DNA of 64,000 nucleotides from Mobula hypostoma (GCF_963921235.1 NC_086107.1:92816001-92880000), one strand, 5' to 3'. Positions 6,872 to 62,901 are shown, counted from the first letter of the stretch. Made by a program: numbers and translations. The notes: generated by a model not told the origin, from the sequence alone.

Positions 6872-7282
6872 CTGTCAGAGACAATAAACTTCCCCAGTCC
6901 TAACGCAGCGTCTCGACCCGAAATGTTGTAGGTTCAGACCCCATTTCGGAGATGTATTACAGGTGAGGTGCAAAGGGATGTAACGCGGTGTGCATTTTAT
7001 GGGAACACCACCATTTTAAAAGGTTTCACTGACCTGACTGCTATGAGGCTGTAATCATTACTCCTCTCAGCCTTGTTTTAGTACCGTGTGATGTGTGATT
7101 AGAAATTCACCTCTGAGCAAGTCCTATTTCACTTCCATTAGCTCTGACATCTCTCTGCGTTCCCAAACGGGTGATGTGTCATTCACAGGCAACAGTAAAT
7201 TAATCCTCAGTTGCTTTCTCTTCCACTGTCACACACCCCAACCACAAATTGTTTGGCTGCAAATGTTGCGCCATTAATCAAC

Positions 7283-19042: not shown

Positions 19043-19298
19043 TGTGGGAAAAACCTTCCTGCATTTACCCTTAATATTTTGTATACATCTTTCAAATCTT
19101 TCCTCAAATCTTCTGATTATCTATGTAAAGTCAGTTGTTTCACCTCCTTTTTCCACCCTCCCCTGGCCCCTTTCAAACCCACAGCCCTGTCCTCAGCCAC
19201 TCACCCTTTCATGAAAAGCTCCATCTTTTTGGTATGTGTCGAGTGGACAACCAGAGACTCTTTTCCCAGGGCAGAAATGGCTAATACAAAGGGGCATA

Positions 19299-20567: not shown

Positions 20568-20756
20568 CAAACAAGAGAAAGTCTGCAGATGCTGGAAATC
20601 CGAGCAACACACACAAAATACTGGAGGAACTCAGCAGGCCAGGCAGCATCTATGGAAAAGAGTACGGTCGACATCTCGGCCCAAAACGTCGACTGTACTC
20701 TTTCTCATAGATGCTGCCTGGCCTGCTGAGTTGCTCCAGCATTTTGTGTGTGTTAT
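20568..20756. mobile_element. Fold-back (palindromic) Penelope terminal-repeat element
   Basis: Arms 20606-20672 and 20688-20754; TSD tcctccccttcc at 20556-20567 and 20757-20768. Confidence 0.9.
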
Positions 20757-31081: not shown

Positions 31082-31671
31082 TACACCCTGTGGCCACTTT
31101 ATTAGGTACACTTGTACCCCTGCTCGTTCATGTAAATATCTAATCAGCCAAGCATGCGAGAGCGACTCAGCGCGTAAAAGCATGCGGACACAGTCAAGAG
31201 GTTCAATTGTCGTTCAGGTCAAACAGCGGAATGGGGAAGAAATGTGATCTAAGTGACTTTGACCGTGGGATGATTGTTGTTTCCAGATGGGGTCCCCTGA
31301 GTATTTCAGAAACTGCTGATTTCCTGGGATTTTCACCCACAACAGTCTTTGGAGTTTGCAGAGAATGGCGCAAAAAAACAAACAGACAGAAAAAAAGCAT
31401 CCAGTGAGCAGCAGTTCTGTGGGCAAAAATGCCTTGTTAATGAGAGAGGTCAGAGGAGAATGGCCAGACTGGTTCAAGCTGACAGGAAGGTGACAGTAAC
31501 ACAAATAACTACATGTTACAACAGTGGTGTGCAGAACAGCATCTCTACATACCCAACACGTCGAACCTTGAAGTGGACGGGCTACAACAGCAGAAGACCA
31601 TGAACATACACTCAGTGGCCAATTTATTAGGTACAGAAGGTACCTACCTAATAAAGTGGCTACTGAGTGTA
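31082..31671 (+). mobile_element. Non-autonomous Tc1 element with TA ends
   Basis: HTH remnants GMIVVSRWGPLSISETADFLGFS and RGQRRMARLVQADRK...TLKWTGYNSRRP; three TIR copies. Confidence 0.9.
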
Positions 31672-31704
31672 TAAGATCGTACATAACAGCAGTCCATTTT
31701 TTTT

Positions 31705-32974: not shown

Positions 32975-33110
32975 TTCGACAGACGCTGGAAATCCAGAAC
33001 AGCACACACAAAATGCTGGAGGAACTCAGTAGGTCAGATTGCATCTAAAGAGAGGAACTAACCGTCGACGTTTTGGGCCAAAACTTTTCATCAGAACTGT
33101 GTATGTTCCT
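32975..33110 (-). mobile_element. Penelope terminal-repeat mini-insert
   Basis: Flanked by tgtcttcct at 32964-32972 and 33111-33119; degenerate hammerhead. Confidence 0.7.
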
Positions 33111-34964: not shown

Positions 34965-35642
34965 CTGTCGATGGCATGCAAAACAAAGCTTTTTGCTGTA
35001 CCTCAGTGTAGGTGACAATAATAGATCGATTAACCTTTTCTCAGTGACGTTTTCAGTTCTTTTCTGGATGTAGGCTTTGCTGACACAGCCTGGCTTCATA
35101 CAGTGAAATTGTGCTGATTGGTCACCTCCCTAATGGCTGCAGTGGGTGTGAAGGTTTAGTCAGAGTCAGCAGTCAGGAATCACGAGTAGGTCAGATAAGG
35201 GTGGAAGGGAACCGAATGGAAGCATATCCCGACAGGTGAGAATACGTCACCGCAAAATAGAAGGTTTCAGATGAAGAGACACCAGAGATTCTGCAGCTGC
35301 TAATAATCCAGATCAACACACACAAAATGCTGGAGGAACTCAGCAGATCAGGCAGCATCTGTGAAGGGAAATAAACAGTTGATGTTTCGGGCTGAGATCT
35401 TACGTCAGAAGTCCTGATGGTTAATTCCCATGGTGGAGCTGGTTGCGTGTATTACGCCCTGCAGCTCAAATGCATGGTGTCTACTGTTTAATATTTCTAC
35501 CTTGGGAGAACAATTCTGACTACCTATCCTATCTGGACCTCTCAAAATTTTCTTTCCCCCTTCAGCCTCTGACACCCTAAACGAGGTTGATCTTGACAAA
35601 TATTCTCTTTTAAACAACATCCATGTAACAGATTATTGGCTG

Positions 35643-35734
35643 CACTCACAATACACTGGAGGAATTCGGCAGGTCGGGCAGCATCCGGGGAAACGATCAG
35701 TCAACATTTCGGGCCGGAACCCTTCGTCAGGACT
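35643..35734 (-). mobile_element. 92-bp TSD-bounded Penelope-derived mini-element carrying a hammerhead
   Basis: TSD gattattggctg at 35631-35642 and 35735-35746. Confidence 0.9.
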
Positions 35735-35735
35735 G
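35698..35735 (-). ncRNA. Minimal type-I hammerhead ribozyme motif
   Basis: cagtc-CTGACGA-a-gggt-tccg-gccc-GAAA-tg-TT-gactg: stem I 5 bp, stem II intact, GUU cleavage triplet. Confidence 0.8.
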
Positions 35736-35905
35736 ATTATTGGCTGTTTGTGAGATCACGCTGTGAAAATAACGATTGGCCCAATTTCATAAATAACAAC
35801 AATTCATTACTTTTGATGAGATATTTATGATAGATTATAAGTGCGATATTAATTTGTACTGAGGTGAGAAAACATTTCTCCTGTTTCCATGGTGGTGTGA
35901 AGCCC

Positions 35906-36998: not shown

Positions 36999-37945
36999 TT
37001 GAGTTGTGGAGTCCGTGAGAGTGAGTCTATAGGCTGTGTTCAGTCGTTAGCTCAGTGTTGAGGTGAGGGACGTTGTCCATACTGGTTCATAAGTTTGACG
37101 GTTGCAGGGCATTAACTGTTCCTGAACCCAGTGGTGTGGGACCTAAAGCTCCTGCATCTCCTTCCCAATGGCAGCAGCGAGAAGAGAGCATGACCTGGGT
37201 GCTGGGATTCCTCGATGATGGACACTGCTTTCTTGTGGCAGCGCTCCTTGTAGATCTGGTCAGCGGTGGGGAGGGCCTTGCCCGTGATTAACTGTAATTG
37301 ACCCTTACTAGTATGTCACATGTAGCGAGAAAAACTGAAAATCTTTCGCTTGAATGCCATGCAGACAAATCATTCCACTCTAGGGGTGATACAGCAAGGA
37401 AACAGGTGGATGTAACAGACAGCTGACAACAAACCCTGGTGAGTTTAAAGGAAGCATGGGAACTCGGGCACCAAGAACTTTAAAGAGGCACGGGGAAAGA
37501 GTCTGGTTAGGAGCATGGGGAGCCACACCCCAGAAATTTTACACAGAAGGGAGTGTGGGAGCAGGACTCCTCGGTGTTCAAAGGGATGGCGGGACCCTTC
37601 TGAACCAGTTGTCAAACTATTGGGATTTCCAAGCAACGTCAGAGTTCAACTATTTCAGGGTGCTGCATCAGCAAGTTTGCAGCGCTTGGAGGTTCATGGC
37701 AGGGAGATTTTCTCCCTTCTGCCATCTGCGTGAGATGATGGGGCTATCGGGACTTTGAGACTTTCTTTTACCGTGCCCATGGTCTGCTCTTTATCAAATT
37801 ATAGCATTACTTTGCACTGTTGTAACTATATGTTATAATTAAAAACAAAAACAACAGGAATTCTGCAGATGCTGGAAATTCAAGCAACACACATCAAAGT
37901 TGCTGGTGAACACAGCAGGCCAAGCAGCATCTATAGGAAGAGGCG

Positions 37946-37982
37946 CAGTCGACGTTTCAGGCCGAGACCCTTCATCAGGACG
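37946..37982 (-). ncRNA. Minimal type-I hammerhead ribozyme motif in the PLE 3' terminal repeat
   Basis: gtc-CTGATGA-agggtctcggcct-GAAA-cg-TC-gac: complete core, GUC triplet, palindromic ACGU stem III. Confidence 0.85.
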
Positions 37983-38280
37983 AACTGAAGGAAGAGTGAG
38001 TAAGGGATTTGAAAGCTGGAGGGGGAGGGGGAGATGCAAAATGATAGAAGAAGACAGGAGGAGGAGGGACGGAGCCAAGAGCTGGACAGGTGATAGGCAA
38101 AAGGGGATACGAGAGGATCATGGGACAGGAGGTCCGGGAAGAAAGACGGCGGGGGGGGGGGGTGACCCAGAGGATGGGCAAGAGGTATATTCAGAGGGAC
38201 AGAGGGAGAAAAAGGAGAGTGAGAGAAAGAATGTGTGCATAAAAATGAGTAACAGATGGGGTACGAGGGGGAGGTGGGGC

Positions 38281-40913
38281 CTAGCGGAAGTTAGAGAAGT
38301 CAATGTTCATGCCATCAGGTTGGAGGCTACCCAGACGGAATATAAGGTGTTGTTCCTCCAACCTGAGTGTGGCTTCATCTTAACAGTAGAGGAGGCCGTG
38401 GATAGACATGTCAGAATGGGAATGGGATGTGGAATTAAAATGTGTGGCCACTGGGAGATCCTGCTTTCTCTGGCGGACAGAGCGTAGATGTTCAGCAAAG
38501 CGGTCTCCCAGTCTGCGTCGGGTCTCACCAATATATAAAAGGCCACATCGGGAGCACCAGACGCAGTATATCACCCCAGACTCACAGGTGAAGTGATGCC
38601 TCACCTGGAAGGACTGTTTGGGGCCCTGAATGATGGTAAGGGAGGAAGTGTAAGGGCATGTGTAGCACTTGTTCCGCTTACACGGATAAGTGCCAGGAGG
38701 GAGATCAGTGGGGAGGGATGGGGGGGACGAATGGACAAGGGAGTTGTGTAGGGAGCGATCCCTGCGGAATGCAGAGGGGGGGGGAGGGAAAGATGTGCTT
38801 AGTGGTGGGATCCCGTTGGAGGTGGCGGAAGTTACGGAGAATAATATGTTGGACCCGGAGGCTGGTGGGGTGGTAGGTGAGGACCAGGGGAACCCTATTC
38901 CTAGTGGGGTGGTGGGAGGATGGAGTGAGAGCAGATGTACGTGAAATGGGGGAGATGCGTTTAAGAGCAGAGTTGATAGTGGAGGAAGGGAAGCCCCTTT
39001 CTTTAAAAAATGAAGACATCTCCCTCGTCCTAGAATGAAAAGCCTCATCCTGAGAGCAGATGCGGCGGAGACGGAGGAATTGCGAGAAGGGGATGGCGTT
39101 TTTGCAAGAGACAGGGTGAGAAGAGGAATAGTCCAGATAGCTGTGAGAGTCAGTAGGCTTATAGTAGACATCAGTGGATAAGCTGTCTCCAGAGACAGAG
39201 ACAGAAAGATCTAGAAAGGGGAGGGAGGTGTCGGAAATGGACCAGGTAAACTTGAGGGCAGGGTGAAAGTTGGAGACAAAGTTAATAAAGTCAACGAGTT
39301 CTGCATGCGTGCAGGAAGCAGCGCCAATGCAGTCGTCGATGTAGCGAAGGAAAAGTGGGGGACAGATGAACATAGATTGTTCCACAAACCCAACAAAAAG
39401 GCAGGCATAGCTAGGACCCATACGGGTTCCCATAGCTACACCTTTAGTTTGGAGGAAATGGGAGGAGCAAAAGGAGAAATTATTAAGAGTAAGGACTAAT
39501 TCCGCTAGACAGAGCAGAGTGGTGGTAGAGGGGAACTGATTAGGTCTGGAATCCAAAAAGAAGCGTAGAGCTTTGAGACCTTCCTGATGGGGGATGGAAG
39601 TATATAGGGACTGGACATCCATGGTGAAAATAAAGCGGTGGGGGCCAGGGAACTTAAAATCATCGAAAAGTTTAAGAGCGTGAGAAGTGTCACGAACATA
39701 GGTCGGAAGGGATTGAACAAGGGGTGATAAAACAGTGTCGAGGTATGCAGAAACGAGTTCGGTGGGGCAGGAGCAAGCTGAGACAATAGGTCGGCCAGGA
39801 CAGGCAGGTTTGTGGATCTTGGGTAGGAGGTAGAAACGGGAAGTGCGGGGTGTGGGAACTATAAGGTTGGTAGCAGTGGATGGGAGATCCCCTGAGCGGA
39901 TAAAGTCGTTGATAGTGTGGGAGACAATGGCCTGGTGCTCCTTAGTGGGGTCACGATCGAGGGGTAAATAAGAGGAGGTATCCGCGAGTTGTCGCTGTGC
40001 CTCGGCAAGGTAGAGGTCAGTACGCCAGACTACAACAGCACCCCCTTTATCAGCGGGTTTAATAATAATGTTAGGATTAGTGCGGAGGGAGTGGAGAGCA
40101 GAGCGTTCCGAAGGAGTGAGGTTGGAATGGGGACAAGGTGCGGTGAAGTCGAGACGGTTGATGCCTCGTCGGCAGTTGGCAATAAAGAGATCCAGAGCAG
40201 GCAGAAGACCAGAGCGGGGTGTCCATGAAGAAGAGGAGGGTTGAAGACGGGAGAAGGGGTCATCGGTGGGGGTGGAAGAGTCCTTGCCGAAGAAGTAGGC
40301 TCGGAGACGGAGACGGCGGAAGAAAAGTTCCGCATCGTGGCGAACACGGAACTCGCTGAGGTGTGGGCGAACGGGGACAAAGGTGAGGCCCTTACTGAGG
40401 ACAGAGCGTTCTGCCTCCGACAGTTGAGGGTCGGAGGGGATGGTAAAGACCCGGCATGGATGAGAGCTGGGATCAGAGGGGGGAGGTGGGAGGCTGGGGG
40501 TGTCAATGGAGAGAGGAGGGTTGGGGTGAGAGGAAGATGGAGCCTCTGAGGGCCCAGGAGTTGACGGTGGGATCTGAGGAAGACGGGGCTGCGGAGTGGT
40601 GGTGGGGGAAGGGGAGACGGGAGTCACAACAGCAGCACATAAAGACCCGGCCTGGTGTTCAAGGCTGGAGTTGCAGTTGGTGGTTGCGTAATCACTTCGA
40701 ATGTGTCCATGGTCGTTGCTGGAGTCCGGGTTTTGAATATGTCCTGAGGTGTTGGAGCCGCCGAGATCAATGGTAGGGGCCGCAATTGAAAGTTCATGCC
40801 TGCTAGCGTCGGGGCCGGCAGGCTCTGGAGTCCGTAGATGTAAGATCTTGCGATCTTTGCCTAACATGACAAAGTCAAAAAAACGGCGATTGCAGGCGTG
40901 GATCCGACGGAGG
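38281..40913 (-). pseudogene. PLE RT-GIY-YIG polyprotein ORF with one frameshift (G9 run at 38776-38784) and one premature TAA (38380-38382)
   Basis: The 764-aa and 263-aa ORFs join across the homopolymer; reading continues DEATLRLEEQHLIFRLGSLQPDGMNIDFSNFR to TAG at 38281-38283. Confidence 0.85.
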
Positions 40914-42038
40914 ATGTTATAATTATGTGGTTTTGTCAGTTTTAGTCTTGGTTTGCCCTGTGTTTCTTGTGATATCATTCTGGAGGAACATTGTATCATT
41001 TTTTAATGCATGCATTTCTAAATGACAATAAACGAGGACTGAGTGTCCTCATAATCAAATCTAAAAACAAAACTAATCACGCAACACAAGGGTTATAGAT
41101 AGGACAGGACGGATTATACATGCAAGTAGGCTTTTTCCACTGACGTTGGGTGAGGCTAGAACTAGGTTAAGGGTGAAAGGTGAAATATATAAGGAACTTC
41201 TTCACTCAGAGGGTAGAGAGAATGTGGAAGGAGCTGTTCGCGAACGTGGTGGATACAGCTTTGATTTCAGCAGTTGATAGAAATTTGGATAAGTACATGG
41301 CGGGAGGTGTATGGTCCAAGTGTGGATCAATGGGTCTGGGCAGAATAACAGTTCTGCATGGTCCATAAGTGCCTGTTTCTGTGCTGTAATGTTCTATGAC
41401 TCTAAGTAGGTTTAAGTGGTTATTACACAGAGCATTACCTATGTCTAATGGGGGGGGGGGAAGAGTCTAATATTGCAGTCCTTCCTCACAGAGCCTCTGT
41501 CGTGACTTGCCATTTATCTTGCAGGCCTGAGCCCCCAGACTGAAAGTTCTGGTCACAATCAGTCCCTTGCGCTAGAAGATAAAACAAAGTATGCCCTCCA
41601 TAGAGTTGATGACCCTCCTGGGCAAAGTTTGGTGTTTGTCGCAGGGAGCACAGTCCTGTGATAAAGACTGAAGACGAAAGAAATGAGCTTCATTTGTACC
41701 TTGAACACCAAAACATACGGTGAGATGCATCGTTTACATCAATGACCAGGACAGTCGAAGGATGTGCTGGGGGCAGCCCACAAGTATCGCCATGCTTCTG
41801 GCGATATATACGGTGACAAATATGTACTTTGATAATCAATTTAGTTTAAATTTTGAACTTTGCCAACAACTTACTAATTGATTATATCATTACAGAGCCT
41901 GCCATTAGTTTTGGTTACAATATTTATGTATGTCAATATTGCATGAATTTTTCATTCCAATTATTTTATCAGAAATAAGTTTGAGAAGTTATTACACAGA
42001 GTCCTGCCTTGGTCTGGTAGTTGAAGGATCTATTATTA

Positions 42039-42238
42039 AAGTCTGCAGATGCTGGAAATCCAAAGCAACACACACAAAATGCTGGAGGAACTCAGCAGGT
42101 CAGGCAGTGTCTATGGAAATGAAGAAACAGTCGACGTTTCGAGCCGAAACCTGTCTTCAGGACTGAGAAGGAAGGGGGAAGATGCCAGAATAAAAAGGTG
42201 GGGGAGGGGGGGAAGGAGAATTAGCTAGAAGGTGGTGG
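42039..42238 (-). mobile_element. Penelope terminal repeat with hammerhead core (42128-42165)
   Basis: Reverse complement reads cagtcCTGAAGAcaggtttcggctcGAAAcgTCgactg; stem II mismatched. Confidence 0.8.
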
Positions 42239-43754: not shown

Positions 43755-45910
43755 TACTTTATACTTTATTGTCGCCAAACAATTGATACTAGAACGTACA
43801 ATCATCACAGCGATATTTGAATCTGCGTTTCCTGCTCCCTGGATTTCAAATCGATAGTAAATATTAAAAATTTAAATTATAAGTCATATATAGAAAAAAG
43901 TAAGGTAGTGCAAAAAAAACCGAGAGGCAAGTCCGGATATTTGGAGGGGTACAGCCCAGATCCGGGTCAGGATCCGTTCAGCAGTCTTATCACAGTTGGA
44001 AAGAAGCTGTTCCCAAATCTGGCCACACGAGTCTTCAAGCTCCTGAGCCTTCTCCCGGAGGGAAGAGGGACGAAAAGTGTGTTGGCTGGGTGGGTCGTGT
44101 CCTTGATTATCCTGGCAGCACTGCTCCGACAGCCTGCAGAGTAAAGTGAGTCCAAGGACGGAAGATTGGTTTGTGTGATGTGCTGCGCCATGTTCACGAT
44201 CTTCTGCAGCTTCTTCCGGTCTTGGACAGGACAACTTCCATACCAGGTTGTGATGCACCCTAGAAGAATGTGAGGATTTTAAGGGATAGGTCAAATTTCT
44301 TTAGTTTTCTCAGGAAGTAAAGGCGCTGGTGGGCCTTCTTGGCAGTGGACTCTGCTTGGTTGGACCACGTCAGGTCATTTGTGATATTAACCCTGAGGAA
44401 CTTAAAGCTTCTGACCTGTTCCACTTGCGCACCACCGATGTAAATTGGGTTGTGCGATCCCCTACTCCTTCTGAAGTCAACAACCAATTCCTTCATCTTG
44501 CTGACATTGAGAGATAGGTTATTGTCTTTGCACCATGCCACCAGGTTCTTAATTTCCTCTCTGTACTCAAACTCATCATTACCCGAGATACAGCCTACAA
44601 CTGTTGCGTCATCAACAAACTTATATATTGAGTTCGATGGAAACTTGGCTACACAATCATGGATGTACAGTGAGTACAGCAGGGGGCTGAGTACATAGCC
44701 TTGTGGGTCACCAGTGCTCAGAGTGATTGTAGAGGAGAGCTTGTCCCCTATTTTTACAGCCTGGGTCCTGTCTGTGAGGAAGTTGAAGATCCAGCTGCAG
44801 ATCTGAGTGCTAAGGCCCAGGTTCTGGAGCTTAGGAATCAGTTTATTTGGAATGATGGTATTAAAGGCAGAGCTGTAGTCAATGAAAAGGAGCCTTACGT
44901 ATGCGTCTTTATTCTCCAGGTGTTCTAAGGAGGAATGTAGGGCCGGAGAGATGGCATCTGCCATTGACCTGTTGCTCCGGTAGGCGAATTGCAAAGTGTC
45001 GAGGTTGACCGGTAGGCTGTGGCTGATGTGTGCCGTAACCAATCGCTCGAAGCACTTCATAACAATTGATGTCAGAGCCACAGGTCGATAGTCATTCAGG
45101 CATGCCACCTTGCTCTTCTTCGGCACTGGGATTATCGTTGCCTTCTTAAAGCACGAGGGGATCTTAGACTGAAGCAAGGAGCAGTTGAAGGTGTCAGCAA
45201 ACATTCCAGCTAGCTCGCTTGCACAGGCCCAGAGAACCCCTCCCGGGACGCCATCTGGGCCCGTTGCCTTCTTTGGATTTATCTTCAGGAAGGCCCTTCT
45301 AACGTTCTCCTCAGTGACGATGAATCTCGATGCCACCAGGTCCAGTCAATCCGGAGGGAGTGGGATGCTCCTCTTCTGTTCGAATCTTGCGTAGAATACG
45401 TTAAGTTCATCAGGAAGAGAAGCGCCACAGTTATTGATATTCCCAGCCTTTTCTTTGTGCCCAGTGATCTCATTTAGACCCTGCCACAGTCTGCTGGCAT
45501 CCCTCTGTTTAGCCTGGGCTTCCAACTTGGCTTGATATTGCCTCTTGGTGCCCTTAATGGCTTTCCGGAGTTCACGCCTGGATTCCGTGTAGCGACTGGT
45601 ATCTCTGGACCTAAGAGCCGCAGCTCTAGGCTTCAAAAGGAATTTGACCTCATAATTCATCCAAGGTTTCCGGTTAGGGAATACCCAGATCGTCTTGCGA
45701 GACACACGGTCCTCTGTGCATTTCCAAATAAAGTCCGTGACAGCTGAGGCATACTCATCGAGGTCAGCTGCCGAGTCCTTGAATACTAACCAGTCCACCG
45801 ATTCAAAGCAGTCACGGAGGACCTCACCCGCTTCCTCCGTCCAACGCGACACTACTTTTGACACCGTGACCTCCCGCTTCAGTTTCTGTTTGTAAGCTGG
45901 GAGGAGGAGT
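43755..45910 (-). mobile_element. Relatively young Rex-Babar LINE, 5'-truncated
   Basis: 358-aa RT ORF with [37 protein letters not shown]. Confidence 0.95.
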
Positions 45911-50550: not shown

Positions 50551-50764
50551 GACAAGAGAAAATCTGCAGATGTTGGAAATCTGAGCGACGTGCACAAGAT
50601 ACCGGAGGAACTCAGCGGGACGGGCGGGACCTATGGGAAAAAAGTACAGCTGAAGTTGCGGGCCAAAACCCTTCGGCAGGTTTCGGCCCAAAATGTTGAC
50701 GGCATGCTTTTCCCTAAATGCTGCCTGGCTTGCCGAGTTCCTCCAGCGTTTTGTGTGTGTTGCT
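50551..50764. mobile_element. Fold-back Penelope terminal-repeat element
   Basis: TSD aacactacctcact at 50537-50550 and 50765-50778; two inverted terminal-repeat arms meeting within the hammerhead stem II. Confidence 0.9.
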
Positions 50765-51159
50765 AACACTACCTCACTATTTCTTTTAGATTTTTAACAA
50801 TATTTCGTATTTCTACTTAGAGCAATCTTTTTATATATTACACTGCATTGCTGCTGCAAAACAACAAATTTTATTTGTCAGTGATAATGAACCTGACTCT
50901 CTGATCTCCAACATATGAACAGCGGGTCGGAGCAGAGGGGCTGATTATCAGCTACAGGAAGACTTTGACCTGCAGGGCAATAACTTCTCTTATCTCTACA
51001 CCTTTTGTGATGGATTCAGCCAAACACTTCATACTTTTGTTGGATGGGGGGTGGATTAAGTTGTCCAGATGGTTCCTCAGAAGTAAAGAATGAGGCTCAA
51101 TCCTGACAGTCCCACTTGTGTTATTGGATGTGCATCATCATACAGGTCAGATTGCAAGC

Positions 51160-60600: not shown

Positions 60601-62901
60601 CAGAATCAGAATCAGGTTTAGTATCACTAAATCAGGTTTAAGTTAAAAAAAAAGTGCAAAAAGAGAAAAAAAATGTAGTGAGATAGTGTTCATCGGTTCA
60701 ATGTCCATTCAGAAATCGAATGGCAGAGTGGAAGAAGCTGTTCCTGAATTGCTGAGTGTGTGCCTTCAGGCTTCTGTACCTTCTCCCTGATGGTAGCAAT
60801 GAGAAGAGGTCACGTCCTGGGTGATGGAGGTCTTTAGTGATAGATGCTGCCTTTTTGAGGCATCGCCTTTTGATCATGCTTCGATGCTGAGACTGGCTGA
60901 GTTTGCAACTTTCTACAGCTTTTTCCAATAAAGCAGTGGCTTCTCCATACCAGAGGGTGATGCAACCAGTTAGAATGATCTCCACAGTACATCTGGAGAA
61001 ATTTGCGAGTGTCTTTGGTGACATACCAAACCTCCAAAATAATAACACTTAGGAATTTAAAGTTGCTAACCGTCTCCATCTCTGATCCCCTGTTGAGGAC
61101 TGGCTCAAGGACCTCTGGCTTCCTTCTCCTGAAGTCCATAATCAGTTCCTTGGTCCTGCTGGCATTACTGCAAGAGGTTGTTGTTCTGGCAGCACTCAGT
61201 CAGATTTTCAATCTACCTCCTATATGCTGCTTTATCACCTCTTTGATTCAGCCTACGACTGTGAGGTCATCAGCAAACTTGAATATGGCATTGGAGTTGT
61301 GCTTAGCCACAAAGTCATAAATGCAAAGCAGGTAGAGCAGGGGGCTGGGCACACAGCCTTATGGTGCACCTATGCAGATGGAGATCGTAGAGAAGATGTT
61401 GTTGCCAATCTGAACTGACTGTAGTCTGCAAATGCAAGGATCCAATTGCGCAGAGGTGTGGAGGCCAAGGACTTGGAGTGTATTGATTAGTTTTGAGTGG
61501 ATAATGACATTAAATTCTGAGCTGTAGTCGATAAAGAGCATCCTGATGAATACACCTTTGCTGTCTAGATGTTCCAGGGTTGAGTGAAGAGCAGTTGCTA
61601 TGGACCTGTTGCTCCAGCAGGCAAGTTGGAGTGGATCTAAATCACTTCTCAGGGAGGCGTTGGTATGTTTCATCACCAGCCTCTCAGGATGCTTCATCAC
61701 TGTGGTTGTAAGTGCTACTGGGCGATAGTCATTGAGGCAGGTCACCATGCTCTTCTTAGGCTCTAGTGCAATTGAAGCCTGCTTGAAGCAAGTGGGTACC
61801 GCACACTCCATTTCAGAGTGTGTATGAAAGGCATTGAGCTCATCTGGGAGTGAAGTATCACAGCCATTCATGATATTATGTTTCACTTTGTAGGAAATAA
61901 TAGCCTGCAAACCCTGCCAGAGCTGATGCACGTCCAATTCTGTCTCTAATCTGATTTGGAATTGTCTCTTCGCCCTTAAATTAAGCCTTCCGTAGGTCGT
62001 ACCTGGACTTCCTGTATAGTTCTGGATCATTAGTCCTGAATGCCACAGATCTAGCCCTCAGCAGACTACAAATATCCTGGTTCATCAACAGCTATTGGCT
62101 TGGGTACGTCCGGTATGTTCTCAAAGGCACACACTCATCCACACAGCTCTTGTTGAAATGGTGATAACAGGGATGTATTCTTTCAGACTCGAAGATGAAT
62201 CCTTGAATATTGTCCAATCCACCAAATCAAATCAATCCTTTGAGCACTCCTTCACTTCCCTTGACCATACCTTCTTGGTGCTCACCACTGGTGCTGTGGT
62301 CTTCAGTTTATGTCTTTATGCTGGGAGTGAGGTCTAGCCAGGTGATTGCACTTTCAAAGTGTCAGCATAGGATGGCATGGTGTGCGTTCAAGTTGATGGT
62401 ATAACGGCGATCAAGTGTGTTGGCTCCTCTGTTTCCACAGACAATATGCTGGTGGGGGTTGTTCAGAGACCTCTTCAAACTGATTGAAATCCCCCACAAT
62501 GATAGGGAAGGGATCAGGACTCCCAACTTCATGCCTGCTGACTGCATTGCTTAGCAAATCCAGTGCCTGCCTATGTTGGCCTGAGGTGGAATGTAACAGC
62601 TACCAAGATGATGGCGCAATAGTCCCTTGGCAGGTAAAATGGATGGCATTTGAATGTTCCTGGTTGGTTGAGCGGGACTGAGACAGAACTGCCATTTCTT
62701 TGCACCATGTGGAGTTAATCATTAAACATGTTCCATCTCCTCTGCCTTTAAAAAACTAATCTGTCCTGTCTTTACAGAGAATGGTGAAGCTATTGGGCTG
62801 CAGCGCTGCGTCCAAAATTGTCAATGTAAGCCATGTTTCCATGAAGCAAAGTACACAGCAGTCCCTGATGTCACTTTGGTACAGCAATCCTGCTCTGAGG
62901 T
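60601..62901 (-). mobile_element. Decayed Rex-Babar LINE (endonuclease + RT)
   Basis: [41 protein letters not shown]. Confidence 0.85.

What the first reader, a model, noticed from the sequence alone, without database searches (positions are those of the whole stretch)
35631..35746. 92-bp TSD-bounded insert made only of a hammerhead ribozyme and a Penelope 3' tail
Seen: a perfect 12-bp direct repeat (gattattggctg) flanks 92 bp. Its minus strand begins at hammerhead stem I (cagtc-CUGACGA-a-GGGU-uccg-GCCC-GAAA-ug-UU-gacug) and ends in the PLE terminal sequence. Known: PLE terminal repeats encode minimal hammerheads, and retrozymes are non-autonomous hammerhead retroelements. Inference: this could be a ribozyme-headed SINE-like or retrozyme-like unit mobilised in trans by the PLE RT, rather than a random truncation.
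Basis: partly seen in the sequence, partly recalled or inferred. Interest (0 to 1): 0.75.

Follow-up and report, generated by a model that had tools for sequence, protein, structure and literature searches.

The report
Leader-only copy of a Penelope retroelement
This 92-base insert is a dead-end copy of just the short leader (hammerhead motif plus 60 bases) of a Penelope-like jumping gene, and many such copies in this genome start at the same base, which probably marks the start of the element's RNA.

Summary
A perfect 12-bp direct repeat flanks 92 bp. The minus strand of the insert starts at helix I of a minimal hammerhead with an intact core, and it ends at a terminus typical of Penelope-like elements (PLEs).

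The 5' end is not a random truncation. In 357 kb of this genome, 16 of 125 PLE end-copies start within a few bases of the hammerhead's first base, a roughly tenfold local excess. Five or six of them have duplications abutting both ends.

The short copies are not a SINE-like or retrozyme-like lineage:
- 0 of 13 has another short copy as its nearest relative.
- 12 short tips need 12 separate origins on a tree.
- None lies in a tandem array.

In intact elements, the same 92 nt sits directly before the first ATG of the 1043-codon frame. The two 3' ends seen across the family match the two internal reverse-transcription start sites reported for PLEs.

My best reading is a run-off cDNA copied from the inner start site back to the RNA's 5' end, probably an initiator-type transcription start. 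Such a copy is dead on arrival. The transcription start is inferred, because no RNA data could be used. Other windows of this scan reached the same "dead tail-end PLE copy" verdict on other DNA.

The parts
35631..35642 (.). Target-site duplication, copy at the element's 3' side (element is on the minus strand)
   Evidence: a perfect 12-mer found only here and at 35735-35746.
35643..35734 (-). The 92-bp insert: the leader of a Penelope-like element (hammerhead plus 55 nt), ending at the inner, tail-less 3' terminus ...GTGAGTG
   Evidence: It is 90-96% identical to 45 other scored places in the same genome. The profile match covers model 80-191 and runs on into the flanking duplication.
35698..35735 (-). 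Minimal type-I hammerhead motif: helix I CAGUC/GACUG, CUGACGA, helix II GGGU/GCCC with loop UCCG, GAAA, and a 1-bp helix III with loop UG. The predicted cut lies between 35703 and 35702.
   Evidence: reading; core intact. The 15.1-16.1 stretch reads AUGU here; ACGU is seen in 30 of 91 aligned units and AUGU in 35 of 91.
35735..35746 (.). Target-site duplication, copy at the element's 5' side. Its last two letters (tc on the minus strand) also fit the element, so the first element base is ambiguous over 3 nt.
35280..35408 (-). An older, separate PLE end-copy 218 bp away on the same strand. It also starts at the hammerhead and carries the ~37-bp tail.
   Evidence: (model 87-209).
37852..41002 (-). 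Context: a long, 5'-truncated PLE of a related subfamily with RT and GIY-YIG frames. Its 3' pseudo-LTR, hammerhead and tail lie at 38062-37852.
   Evidence: RVT_1 E 7.4e-05 and GIY-YIG E 0.0013, both below Pfam's curated cut-offs.; 150 scored genomic matches at 92-96% protein identity.

Best explanation
The insert is a dead-on-arrival retrocopy of only the leader of a Penelope-like element (PLE) RNA.

Shown here:
- It is a single target-primed insertion with a 12-bp target-site duplication.
- Its 3' end is the inner of the two 3' termini used across the family. These lie about 37 nt apart, and the longer form carries the known optional PLE 'tail'.
- Its 5' end falls on a recurrent 5'-end hot spot at the first bases of hammerhead helix I.
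- In intact elements of a related, abundant subfamily, these 92 nt lie directly in front of the first ATG of the 1043-codon RT-endonuclease frame, and the tail corresponds to codons 2-13.
- Short copies arise independently within each subfamily.

Inferred:
- The hot spot is the 5' end of PLE RNA. It is most simply a Pol II start at an initiator-like YYA(+1)GTCC, with an A/T-rich patch about 25-30 nt upstream.
- The PLE reverse transcriptase starts internally next to the ORF start. When it starts on the site nearest the 5' end of such an RNA, it runs off after about 92 nt (129 nt when the tail is included).
- The product has lost the upstream promoter region. It has also lost the RNA beyond the start site that the protein is reported to need, so it cannot be copied again.

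The hammerhead is carried along as part of the leader. Nothing here suggests that its cleavage made either end.
For: Insertion: (12-bp duplication, 2 matches against 0.01 expected).

Family membership: one search gave 2178 first-look candidates in the 3.48-Gb genome, of which 40 were scored, giving 46 matches at 82-100% identity (the window's own place is the 100% row).

3' ends: ends fall either at ...GTGAGTG (model about 174-187) or about 37 nt further on (model 202-210).

Hot spot:
- of 125 profile hits (L001 dropped because it duplicates the window), 64 extend at least 50 nt upstream, 26 are inverted junctions, 16 start at 78-88, 6 at 33-77 and 13 at 89-140.
- In the window plus 20 arbitrarily chosen 10-kb stretches, 10 of 63 hits start at 78-88 (p 2e-5).
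- No cluster lies at the predicted cleavage product start, model position 115.
- duplications abut both ends in L049 (about 13-15 bp), L014 (11), L020 (10-11) and L017 (10 with 1 mismatch).
- the flanks immediately upstream of short copies do not recur upstream of other units, so they are not a diverged pseudo-LTR.

Starts include the AG: most short copies begin CAGTCC or AGTCC (ours, L017, L039, L013 and the copies at 19049 and 33099).

Leader position: (L051), the A of ttAGTCC is at 1124 and the first Met of the open frame is at 1216. One search gives that frame as 1043 aa.

No separate lineage.

Literature:
- Frangieh et al. 2024, PMC11167929 (main text read). A PLE reverse transcriptase starts at two adjacent internal RNA sites that define the tail. 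RNA 3' of the start site is required. Hammerhead mutants insert normally. No RNA reads start at the hammerhead cut site.
- Schostak et al. 2008, PMC2377424 (passages). The Penelope pseudo-LTR holds the transcription start with an Inr-type promoter, and the 3' pseudo-LTR can drive transcription.
Against: - No RNA evidence. No run on record as RNA holds the family, and the runs that were laid are contigs, which cannot show RNA ends. The transcription start therefore rests on motif resemblance only.
- The same upstream sequence (a CT-rich tract followed by CAG) also looks like a 3' splice site. In D. virilis Penelope, an intron ends exactly at the 5' end of helix I (Cervera and de la Pena 2014, passage).
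- 0 of 9 ORF-intact copies examined starts at the hammerhead. All 9 carry at least about 215 nt of pseudo-LTR upstream. RNAs starting at this base are therefore not the templates of the full-length copies sampled.
- The A/T-rich patch is a good TATA-like word (TTTATAGGG) only in the young subfamily.
- Local profile alignments can end early where the upstream region has diverged. This could inflate the hot spot among old copies. Only 5-6 of the 16 have clear duplications, one of the 16 lies at a locus edge, and two are weak.
- The position of the start codon was seen in a related subfamily. In the focal subfamily the aligned triplet is GTG and that frame is closed (reading).
Confidence: 0.55

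Rival explanations
1. The hot spot is real, but it marks a place where reverse transcription or end-joining stops on longer read-through RNA, or an RNA end made by processing. Examples would be a bound protein, an event linked to a 3' splice site at CAG|TCC, or a switch of template at the ribozyme. It would then not be a transcription start. The insert is still a dead-end PLE copy.
For: - 64 of 125 copies read through this position, so long templates are common.
- All 9 intact copies examined extend upstream of it.
- 26 of 125 copies are inverted junctions, and 15 of those heads lie at model 75-102, in and around the hammerhead. The region is therefore prone to template switching.
- The upstream sequence resembles a branch point, a polypyrimidine tract and an AG.
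- In D. virilis an intron ends at helix I.
- The Anolis hammerhead cleaves only with PLE protein present, which implies that protein is bound nearby.
Against: - Most short copies include the AG or CAG, so they do not begin at the would-be exon base.
- A lariat block would give ends 18-40 nt upstream, and few are seen there (6 at model 33-77).
- The RNA just upstream is CT-rich and offers no obvious structure to stall on.
- The whole hammerhead has already been copied by the time the stop occurs.
Confidence: 0.2
2. The insert is an ordinary random 5' truncation of a PLE cDNA, and its start at helix I is a coincidence.
For: - PLE copies are known to be heavily 5'-truncated (Craig et al. 2021, passages).
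- Single min-hammerheads were attributed to truncated PLEs (Cervera and de la Pena 2014, passage).
- In the sample, 5' ends do occur at many other positions.
Against: - 16 of the 35 non-inverted 5' ends that fall within model 33-140 lie in an 11-nt window (p 8e-8).
- Several of these have exact duplications abutting both ends.
- In the young subfamily, where alignment is unambiguous, three other copies end at model 81: L017, L004+ and L009+.
Confidence: 0.1
3. This is the first reader's reading: a ribozyme-headed, non-autonomous SINE-like or retrozyme-like element with its own lineage. It would be transcribed from its own copies and mobilised in trans by the PLE enzyme.
For: - The 5' and 3' ends are discrete.
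- The hammerhead core is intact in the focal copy.
- A 2026 preprint argues that animal non-LTR retrozymes derive from PLE pseudo-LTRs (Li, Clavereau and Pollet, bioRxiv 10.64898/2026.07.22.740005; abstract and first part of Results read).
- D. virilis Penelope has a promoter downstream of its start site, so a leader copy could in principle keep some promoter function.
Against: - Short copies never cluster: 0 of 13 nearest neighbours are short, and 12 changes are needed for 12 tips, against a shuffled mean of 11.5.
- The nearest relatives of the focal copy are long copies at 94-95% identity.
- No shared diagnostic substitutions were found.
- No tandem arrays occur.
- The copy lacks the sequence 3' of the start site that the Anolis enzyme needs.
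- Only 5 of 13 short copies keep an intact core, against 37 of 60 long ones.
Confidence: 0.07

Closest known systems
5'-truncated, dead-on-arrival insertions of canonical endonuclease-positive Penelope-like elements, with pseudo-LTR, optional 30-40-bp tail and adjacent inverted copy
   Same: - It is the same element family as the long RT + GIY-YIG copies in this genome.
- It has a target-site duplication.
- Its 3' end is one of the two termini that define the tail.
- The family shows the known head-to-head inverted pairs with the tail on one arm only: 19 of 28 pairs.
   Different: The 5' end is not scattered. It falls on a discrete position at the first bases of the hammerhead, shared by about one copy in eight in the sample. 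I found no statement of this in the papers searched and read. Their supplements were not seen.
[quoted passage not shown] 2024)
   Same: - There are two RT start sites 30-40 nt apart near the start of the ORF, just downstream of the hammerhead, and they give tail and tail-less ends.
- Hammerhead cleavage is not needed, and no ends lie at the cut site.
   Different: - Here the inner site lies within a few bases of the first ATG of the open frame. In PAc it lies 111-118 nt into the ORF.
- That paper does not describe leader-only genomic copies in the text I read.
Minimal dimeric hammerheads of metazoan PLEs (Cervera and de la Pena 2014)
   Same: - The core is CUGANGA...GAAA, followed by U and H17.
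- Helix I has 5 bp and helix II has a GC-rich 4 bp.
- Helix III has 1 bp and a 2-nt loop.
   Different: The palindrome ACGU, which would form helix III between two copies, reads AUGU in this copy. That leaves two G-U wobbles, probably from CpG decay.
Animal non-LTR retrozymes
   Same: Both carry a type-I hammerhead, are related to PLE pseudo-LTRs and do not code for protein.
   Different: Retrozymes are tandem arrays that yield circular RNAs. This is a single unit with a duplication, it lies in no array, and its kind forms no lineage.
Full-length 5' ends of LINE-type retrocopies that mark the element's transcription start
   Same: It shows how a run-off cDNA gives a sharp, shared 5' end at the RNA's first base.
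   Different: Here the cDNA is only about 92 nt long, because priming is internal and close to the RNA's 5' end.

Membership tests
Penelope-like element (endonuclease-positive) insertion | Sequence continuity with elements that encode an RT followed by a C-terminal GIY-YIG endonuclease | tested here: met
   - Close relatives of the insert continue upstream into the end of an ORF.
- The window's long copy has RVT_1 (E 7.4e-05) and GIY-YIG (E 0.0013) frames. Both score below Pfam's curated cut-offs.
- Its N-terminal part finds 150 scored genomic matches, about 20 of them in 1043-aa open frames.
Penelope-like element (endonuclease-positive) insertion | An optional 30-40-bp tail, that is, two alternative 3' termini | tested here: met
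   Ends fall at ...GTGAGTG or about 37 nt further on. The focal copy has the tail-less end.
Penelope-like element (endonuclease-positive) insertion | Target-site duplication from staggered endonuclease cuts | tested here: met
   A 12-bp perfect duplication. Other short copies have 10-15 bp.
Penelope-like element (endonuclease-positive) insertion | Pseudo-LTR or partial-tandem structure, or an adjacent inverted copy | tested here: not met
   The focal copy stands alone between its duplications. The family as a whole shows both structures. This feature is frequent in PLEs but is not required of a truncated copy.
Minimal type-I hammerhead (min-HHR) | Conserved core (CUGANGA, GAAA, U16.1, H17) flanked by helices I and II | tested here: met
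   - every core position checked is present.
- Helix I has 5 bp and helix II has 3 G-C pairs plus one U-G.
- Across 91 aligned units the pairs are mostly invariant or decayed, so covariation gives little support.
Minimal type-I hammerhead (min-HHR) | Match to a curated hammerhead covariance model | tested here: not met
   Rfam gave 0 matches at gathering threshold and no hammerhead match at E<=10. These models expect a real helix III.
Minimal type-I hammerhead (min-HHR) | Self-cleavage, as a dimer or with protein | not testable with these tools
   The monomer fold is not a hammerhead. Cleavage needs a bench assay.
SINE-like non-autonomous retroposon | Its own lineage, with copies descending from short master copies and carrying diagnostic changes | tested here: not met
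   The focal copy and L017 share no difference that long copies lack.
SINE-like non-autonomous retroposon | A promoter carried within the copy | not tested
   The copy lacks everything upstream of the putative start. Whether the 92 nt have internal promoter activity is unknown.
Non-LTR retrozyme | Head-to-tail tandem arrays of the hammerhead unit | tested here: not met
   none of the 26 same-strand neighbour pairs within 1.5 kb is an array of hammerhead-headed units.
Non-LTR retrozyme | Circular RNA of unit length | not testable with these tools
   No run on record as RNA was listed.

The most novel reading that the evidence does not exclude
In this PLE lineage, the first base of hammerhead helix I would be the capped 5' end of the element's mRNA, and the hammerhead plus about 55 nt would be its entire leader. 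The element's enzyme starts copying next to the start codon. On its own mRNA it would therefore often copy only this leader.

One PLE insertion in eight would then be a leader-only retrocopy, on the order of 10^5 per genome. This is a rough extrapolation from 41 hits in 200 kb and from 10 of 63 hits in the window plus the 20 stretches.

That would place the conserved but functionally unexplained PLE hammerhead at the cap-proximal end of the RNA. Cleavage there would remove the cap, which could act as a switch between use as a message and other fates.
Probability: 0.2. Interest if true: 0.65.

Novelty: new member of a known kind. Interest (0 to 1): 0.35.

Why it matters
The role of the hammerhead in Penelope-like elements is an open question. 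Published work shows that it is conserved, cleaves poorly, and is not needed for insertion in vitro.

A sharp, shared 5' end of genomic copies at the motif's first base gives a concrete and cheaply testable claim about where the element's RNA begins relative to the ribozyme and the start codon. It also explains a large class of "orphan" hammerhead motifs in such genomes as leader-only by-products of internal priming.

For annotation, these units should be masked as PLE fragments. They should not be called a new SINE or a retrozyme.

Tried and rejected
- **Rfam:** no hammerhead match.
- **Wider random sampling:** The 5'-end statistics therefore rest on 357 kb, and the structure of intact copies rests on 9 short stretches.
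- **RNA evidence:** no RNA holder was listed. The four runs laid are contigs guessed to be RNA, which cannot show RNA starts, so I draw nothing on expression from them.
- **Tree programs:** they could not be loaded. I used a Biopython neighbour-joining tree with my own parsimony count and 2000 label shuffles instead.
- **The unit at 42164 as the upstream pseudo-LTR of the window's long PLE:** rejected. The kilobase between them is made of other repeats, and genomic relatives diverge from the window copy before residue 24 of the query. The long copy is therefore 5'-truncated and the unit is separate.
- **A discrete ~430-bp element suggested by many alignments starting at one reference position:** rejected. 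The reference copy itself was truncated there, and the others continue upstream.
- **Hammerhead cleavage as the origin of either end:** rejected. No cluster lies at the cleavage-product start.
- **A spliced exon 1 hidden in the "unrelated" upstream flanks:** rejected. The flanks share nothing with each other, and duplications abut the unit.
- **Copies reaching the 5' part of the ORF:** none was found in the 357-kb sample.

Full report
**1. Observation**

One search shows gattattggctg at 35631-35642 and again at 35735-35746, with exactly 92 bp between them. The 12-mer occurs nowhere else in the window, against 0.01 matches expected by chance.

The minus strand of the insert begins (c)AGUC CUGACGA A GGGU UCCG GCCC GAAA UG UU|GACUG. 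It runs on for 55 nt to ...GTGAGTG. Every hammerhead core position I checked is present.

Helix III is one base pair with a 2-nt loop, which is the "minimal" form described for Penelope-like elements (PLEs). Two results follow from that:
- No Rfam model matches.
- The 94-nt RNA alone is not predicted to fold as a hammerhead (z-score 0.20).

**2. What the unit belongs to**

The window holds about twenty diverged copies of the same unit. It also holds a long minus-strand element with reverse-transcriptase and GIY-YIG frames at 38380-41002 (both Pfam scores are below the curated cut-offs). That element's 3' end carries the same hammerhead unit.

The window lies in a 3.48-Gb assembly. A search with the insert and its flanks gave 2178 first-look candidates, of which 40 were scored. 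These yielded 46 matches, most at 90-96% identity.

At first sight all of them begin at the same query position. That is a consequence of the query's unique flank. When the 30 loci are read, nearly all relatives continue upstream of the hammerhead with a conserved CT-rich sequence and then into the end of an ORF.

The family has two kinds of 3' end. One stops at ...GTGAGTG, as the focal copy does. The other runs about 37 nt further.

**3. Is the 5' end random?**

I built a 211-position profile from 22 natural copies: 80 nt upstream, the 94-nt unit and the 37-nt tail. I ran it over all the DNA I held, 357 kb in total. This comprised the window, the 29 other loci, and 20 arbitrarily placed 10-kb stretches.

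The 125 hits break down as follows (L001 was dropped as a duplicate of the window):

| Class of 5' end | Copies |
|---|---|
| Extends at least 50 nt upstream of the hammerhead | 64 |
| Joined head-to-head to an inverted copy within 30 bp | 26 |
| Starts at model 78-88 (the hammerhead's TCAGTC is 81-86) | 16 |
| Starts at model 33-77 | 6 |
| Starts at model 89-140 | 13 |

- Against a uniform spread over positions 33-140, the excess at 78-88 has a binomial p of 8e-8.
- In the window plus the 20 arbitrary stretches, 10 of 63 hits start at 78-88 (p 2e-5).
- The focal copy is included in these counts. One of the 16 lies at a locus edge and two are weak hits.
- Direct repeats abut both ends in the focal copy (12 bp), L049 (about 13-15), L014 (11), L020 (10-11) and L017 (10 with one mismatch). 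The copy at 33099 has one offset by 11 nt.
- Bounded by these repeats, the first element base lies within a 5-nt span. Most short copies begin CAGTCC or AGTCC.
- The flanks just upstream of the short copies do not recur upstream of other units, so they are not an unrecognised pseudo-LTR.
- No cluster lies at position 115, where a hammerhead-cleaved RNA would begin.

**4. Is it a lineage of its own?**

It is not.
- The focal copy's nearest relatives over model positions 89-174 are an inverted-pair arm and long copies, at 94-95% identity. L017's are long copies at 95-98%.
- 0 of 13 short copies has a short copy as nearest neighbour: 8 have a long copy, 3 an inverted arm and 2 another class.
- On a neighbour-joining tree of 90 units, the 12 short tips (the edge copy was dropped) need 12 changes. 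That is the maximum possible, against a mean of 11.5 for 2000 label shuffles.
- Short copies occur in at least three recognisable subfamilies. Each sits beside long copies of that subfamily.
- No head-to-tail arrays of the unit exist in the sample.

**5. Where the unit sits in an intact element**

The N-terminal part of the window's long PLE finds 150 scored matches at 92-96% identity (63,022 first-look candidates). About 20 of them lie in 1043-aa open frames.

One 1.7-kb stretch upstream of such a frame shows the order: pseudo-LTR, then ...ttcagttAGTCCTGACG (A at 1124), then the hammerhead and 55 nt, then the first Met of the open frame at 1216. The 92-nt unit therefore lies immediately in front of the ORF, and the "tail" is codons 2-13.

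This was seen in a related subfamily. In the focal subfamily the aligned triplet is GTG and that frame closes (reading), so its ORF start must lie elsewhere. I could not fetch a full-length copy to check.

All 9 intact copies examined carry at least about 215 nt of pseudo-LTR upstream of the hammerhead. None starts at the hammerhead. None of the 125 end-copies in the sample reaches the 5' part of the ORF.

**6. Mechanism**

Frangieh et al. 2024 (PMC11167929, main text read) report the following for an Anolis PLE enzyme:
- It starts reverse transcription at two adjacent internal sites near the ORF start, and these explain the optional tail.
- It needs RNA beyond the start site.
- It cuts and extends both DNA strands.
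- It inserts equally well with a dead hammerhead.
- No RNA reads begin at the hammerhead cut site.

The two 3' termini here match that picture. So does a second pattern: in 19 of 28 head-to-head pairs, one arm has the tail and the other lacks it.

Schostak et al. 2008 (PMC2377424, passages) place the Penelope transcription start inside the pseudo-LTR, with an Inr-type promoter. They note that the 3' pseudo-LTR can drive transcription.

The hot-spot sequence fits the initiator word YYA(+1)NWYY (TCAGTCC, TTAGTCC). An A/T-rich patch lies about 25-30 nt upstream: TTTATAGGG in the young subfamily and weaker in the others.

My best reading has three steps:
1. RNA begins at this base.
2. The enzyme starts at the site nearest the RNA's 5' end and runs off after 92 nt, or 129 nt with the tail.
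3. The product lacks both the upstream region and the downstream binding region, so it is dead on arrival.

The insertion, both end positions, the leader position and the lack of a lineage are shown. The transcription start and the choice of priming site are inferred.

**7. What speaks against the inferred part**

- There is no RNA evidence.
- The same CT-rich tract plus CAG also looks like a 3' splice site. In D. virilis Penelope an intron ends at the 5' end of helix I (Cervera and de la Pena 2014, passage). Against a splice-site origin, most short copies include the AG, and few ends lie where a lariat branch would block copying.
- No intact copy starts at the hot spot (0 of 9).
- Profile alignments of old copies may end early where the upstream region has diverged.

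I therefore give the transcription-start run-off reading 0.55, a non-transcriptional stop or processing site 0.2, coincidence 0.1 and a true SINE-like or retrozyme-like lineage 0.07.

**8. Comparison with what is known, and novelty**

The insert is a truncated PLE copy, which is a known kind.
- Cervera and de la Pena 2014 already attributed scattered single min-hammerheads to truncated PLEs (passage).
- Craig et al. 2021 describe the truncation, the tails and the inverted copies (passages).
- A 2026 preprint derives animal retrozymes from PLE pseudo-LTRs (abstract and part of Results read).

None of these, nor the listings of my other searches, mentions a discrete class of copies whose 5' end sits at the hammerhead's first base, or a link between that base and the RNA start. 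I did not see the supplements of these papers, and the Lünse et al. 2017 paper on dimeric PLE hammerheads is not in the library (recalled only).

Two earlier notes of this scan, on other shark-type DNA, reached the same general verdict of dead tail-end PLE copies.

Noticed in passing
L003, L004, L007, L008, L009, L015, L016, L019, L022, L023, L024, L029, L030, L031, L033 and window 20572-20755, 50554-50770: Of 28 head-to-head inverted pairs of PLE end-copies, 19 have the ~37-bp tail on exactly one arm. None has both arms tail-less. Only one has tails on both arms, and that is the most distant pair, at 1492 bp. The asymmetry looks too regular for two independent choices of start site.
   Followed up: partly
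window 20572-20755 and 50554-50770; L004, L009, L019, L029, L035: Many inverted pairs meet inside the hammerhead itself: 15 of 26 junction heads lie at model 75-102. Several meet around the near-palindromic helix II, giving perfect fold-back junctions.
   Followed up: partly
window 31604-31674, both strands: A palindromic hairpin matches the Rfam family mir-9256 below its gathering score (50.7 and 48.8 bits against 80; E 2.8e-08 and 9.4e-08). It looks like a fold-back repeat rather than a confirmed microRNA gene.
   Followed up: no
G000, places listed: The PLE family of the window's long copy is very abundant. There are 63,022 first-look candidates, and about 20 of the 150 scored matches lie in uninterrupted 1043-aa frames at 92-96% identity, which suggests recent activity.
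   Followed up: partly
window 35280-35408 and 35643-35734, minus strand: Two independent hammerhead-headed leader copies of different age and subfamily lie 218 bp apart in the same orientation.
   Followed up: no
window 44260-45345 and 61359-62057, minus strand: Other reverse-transcriptase frames occur here: RVT_1 at E 2e-28, with an ALKBH8_N-like match, and RVT_1 at E 4.2e-06. They probably belong to unrelated non-LTR retroelements.
   Followed up: no
window 6896-6928, plus strand: This copy starts at the hammerhead, and its similarity to the unit stops within a base or two of the predicted ribozyme cut site. It is a single case and may be chance.
   Followed up: no
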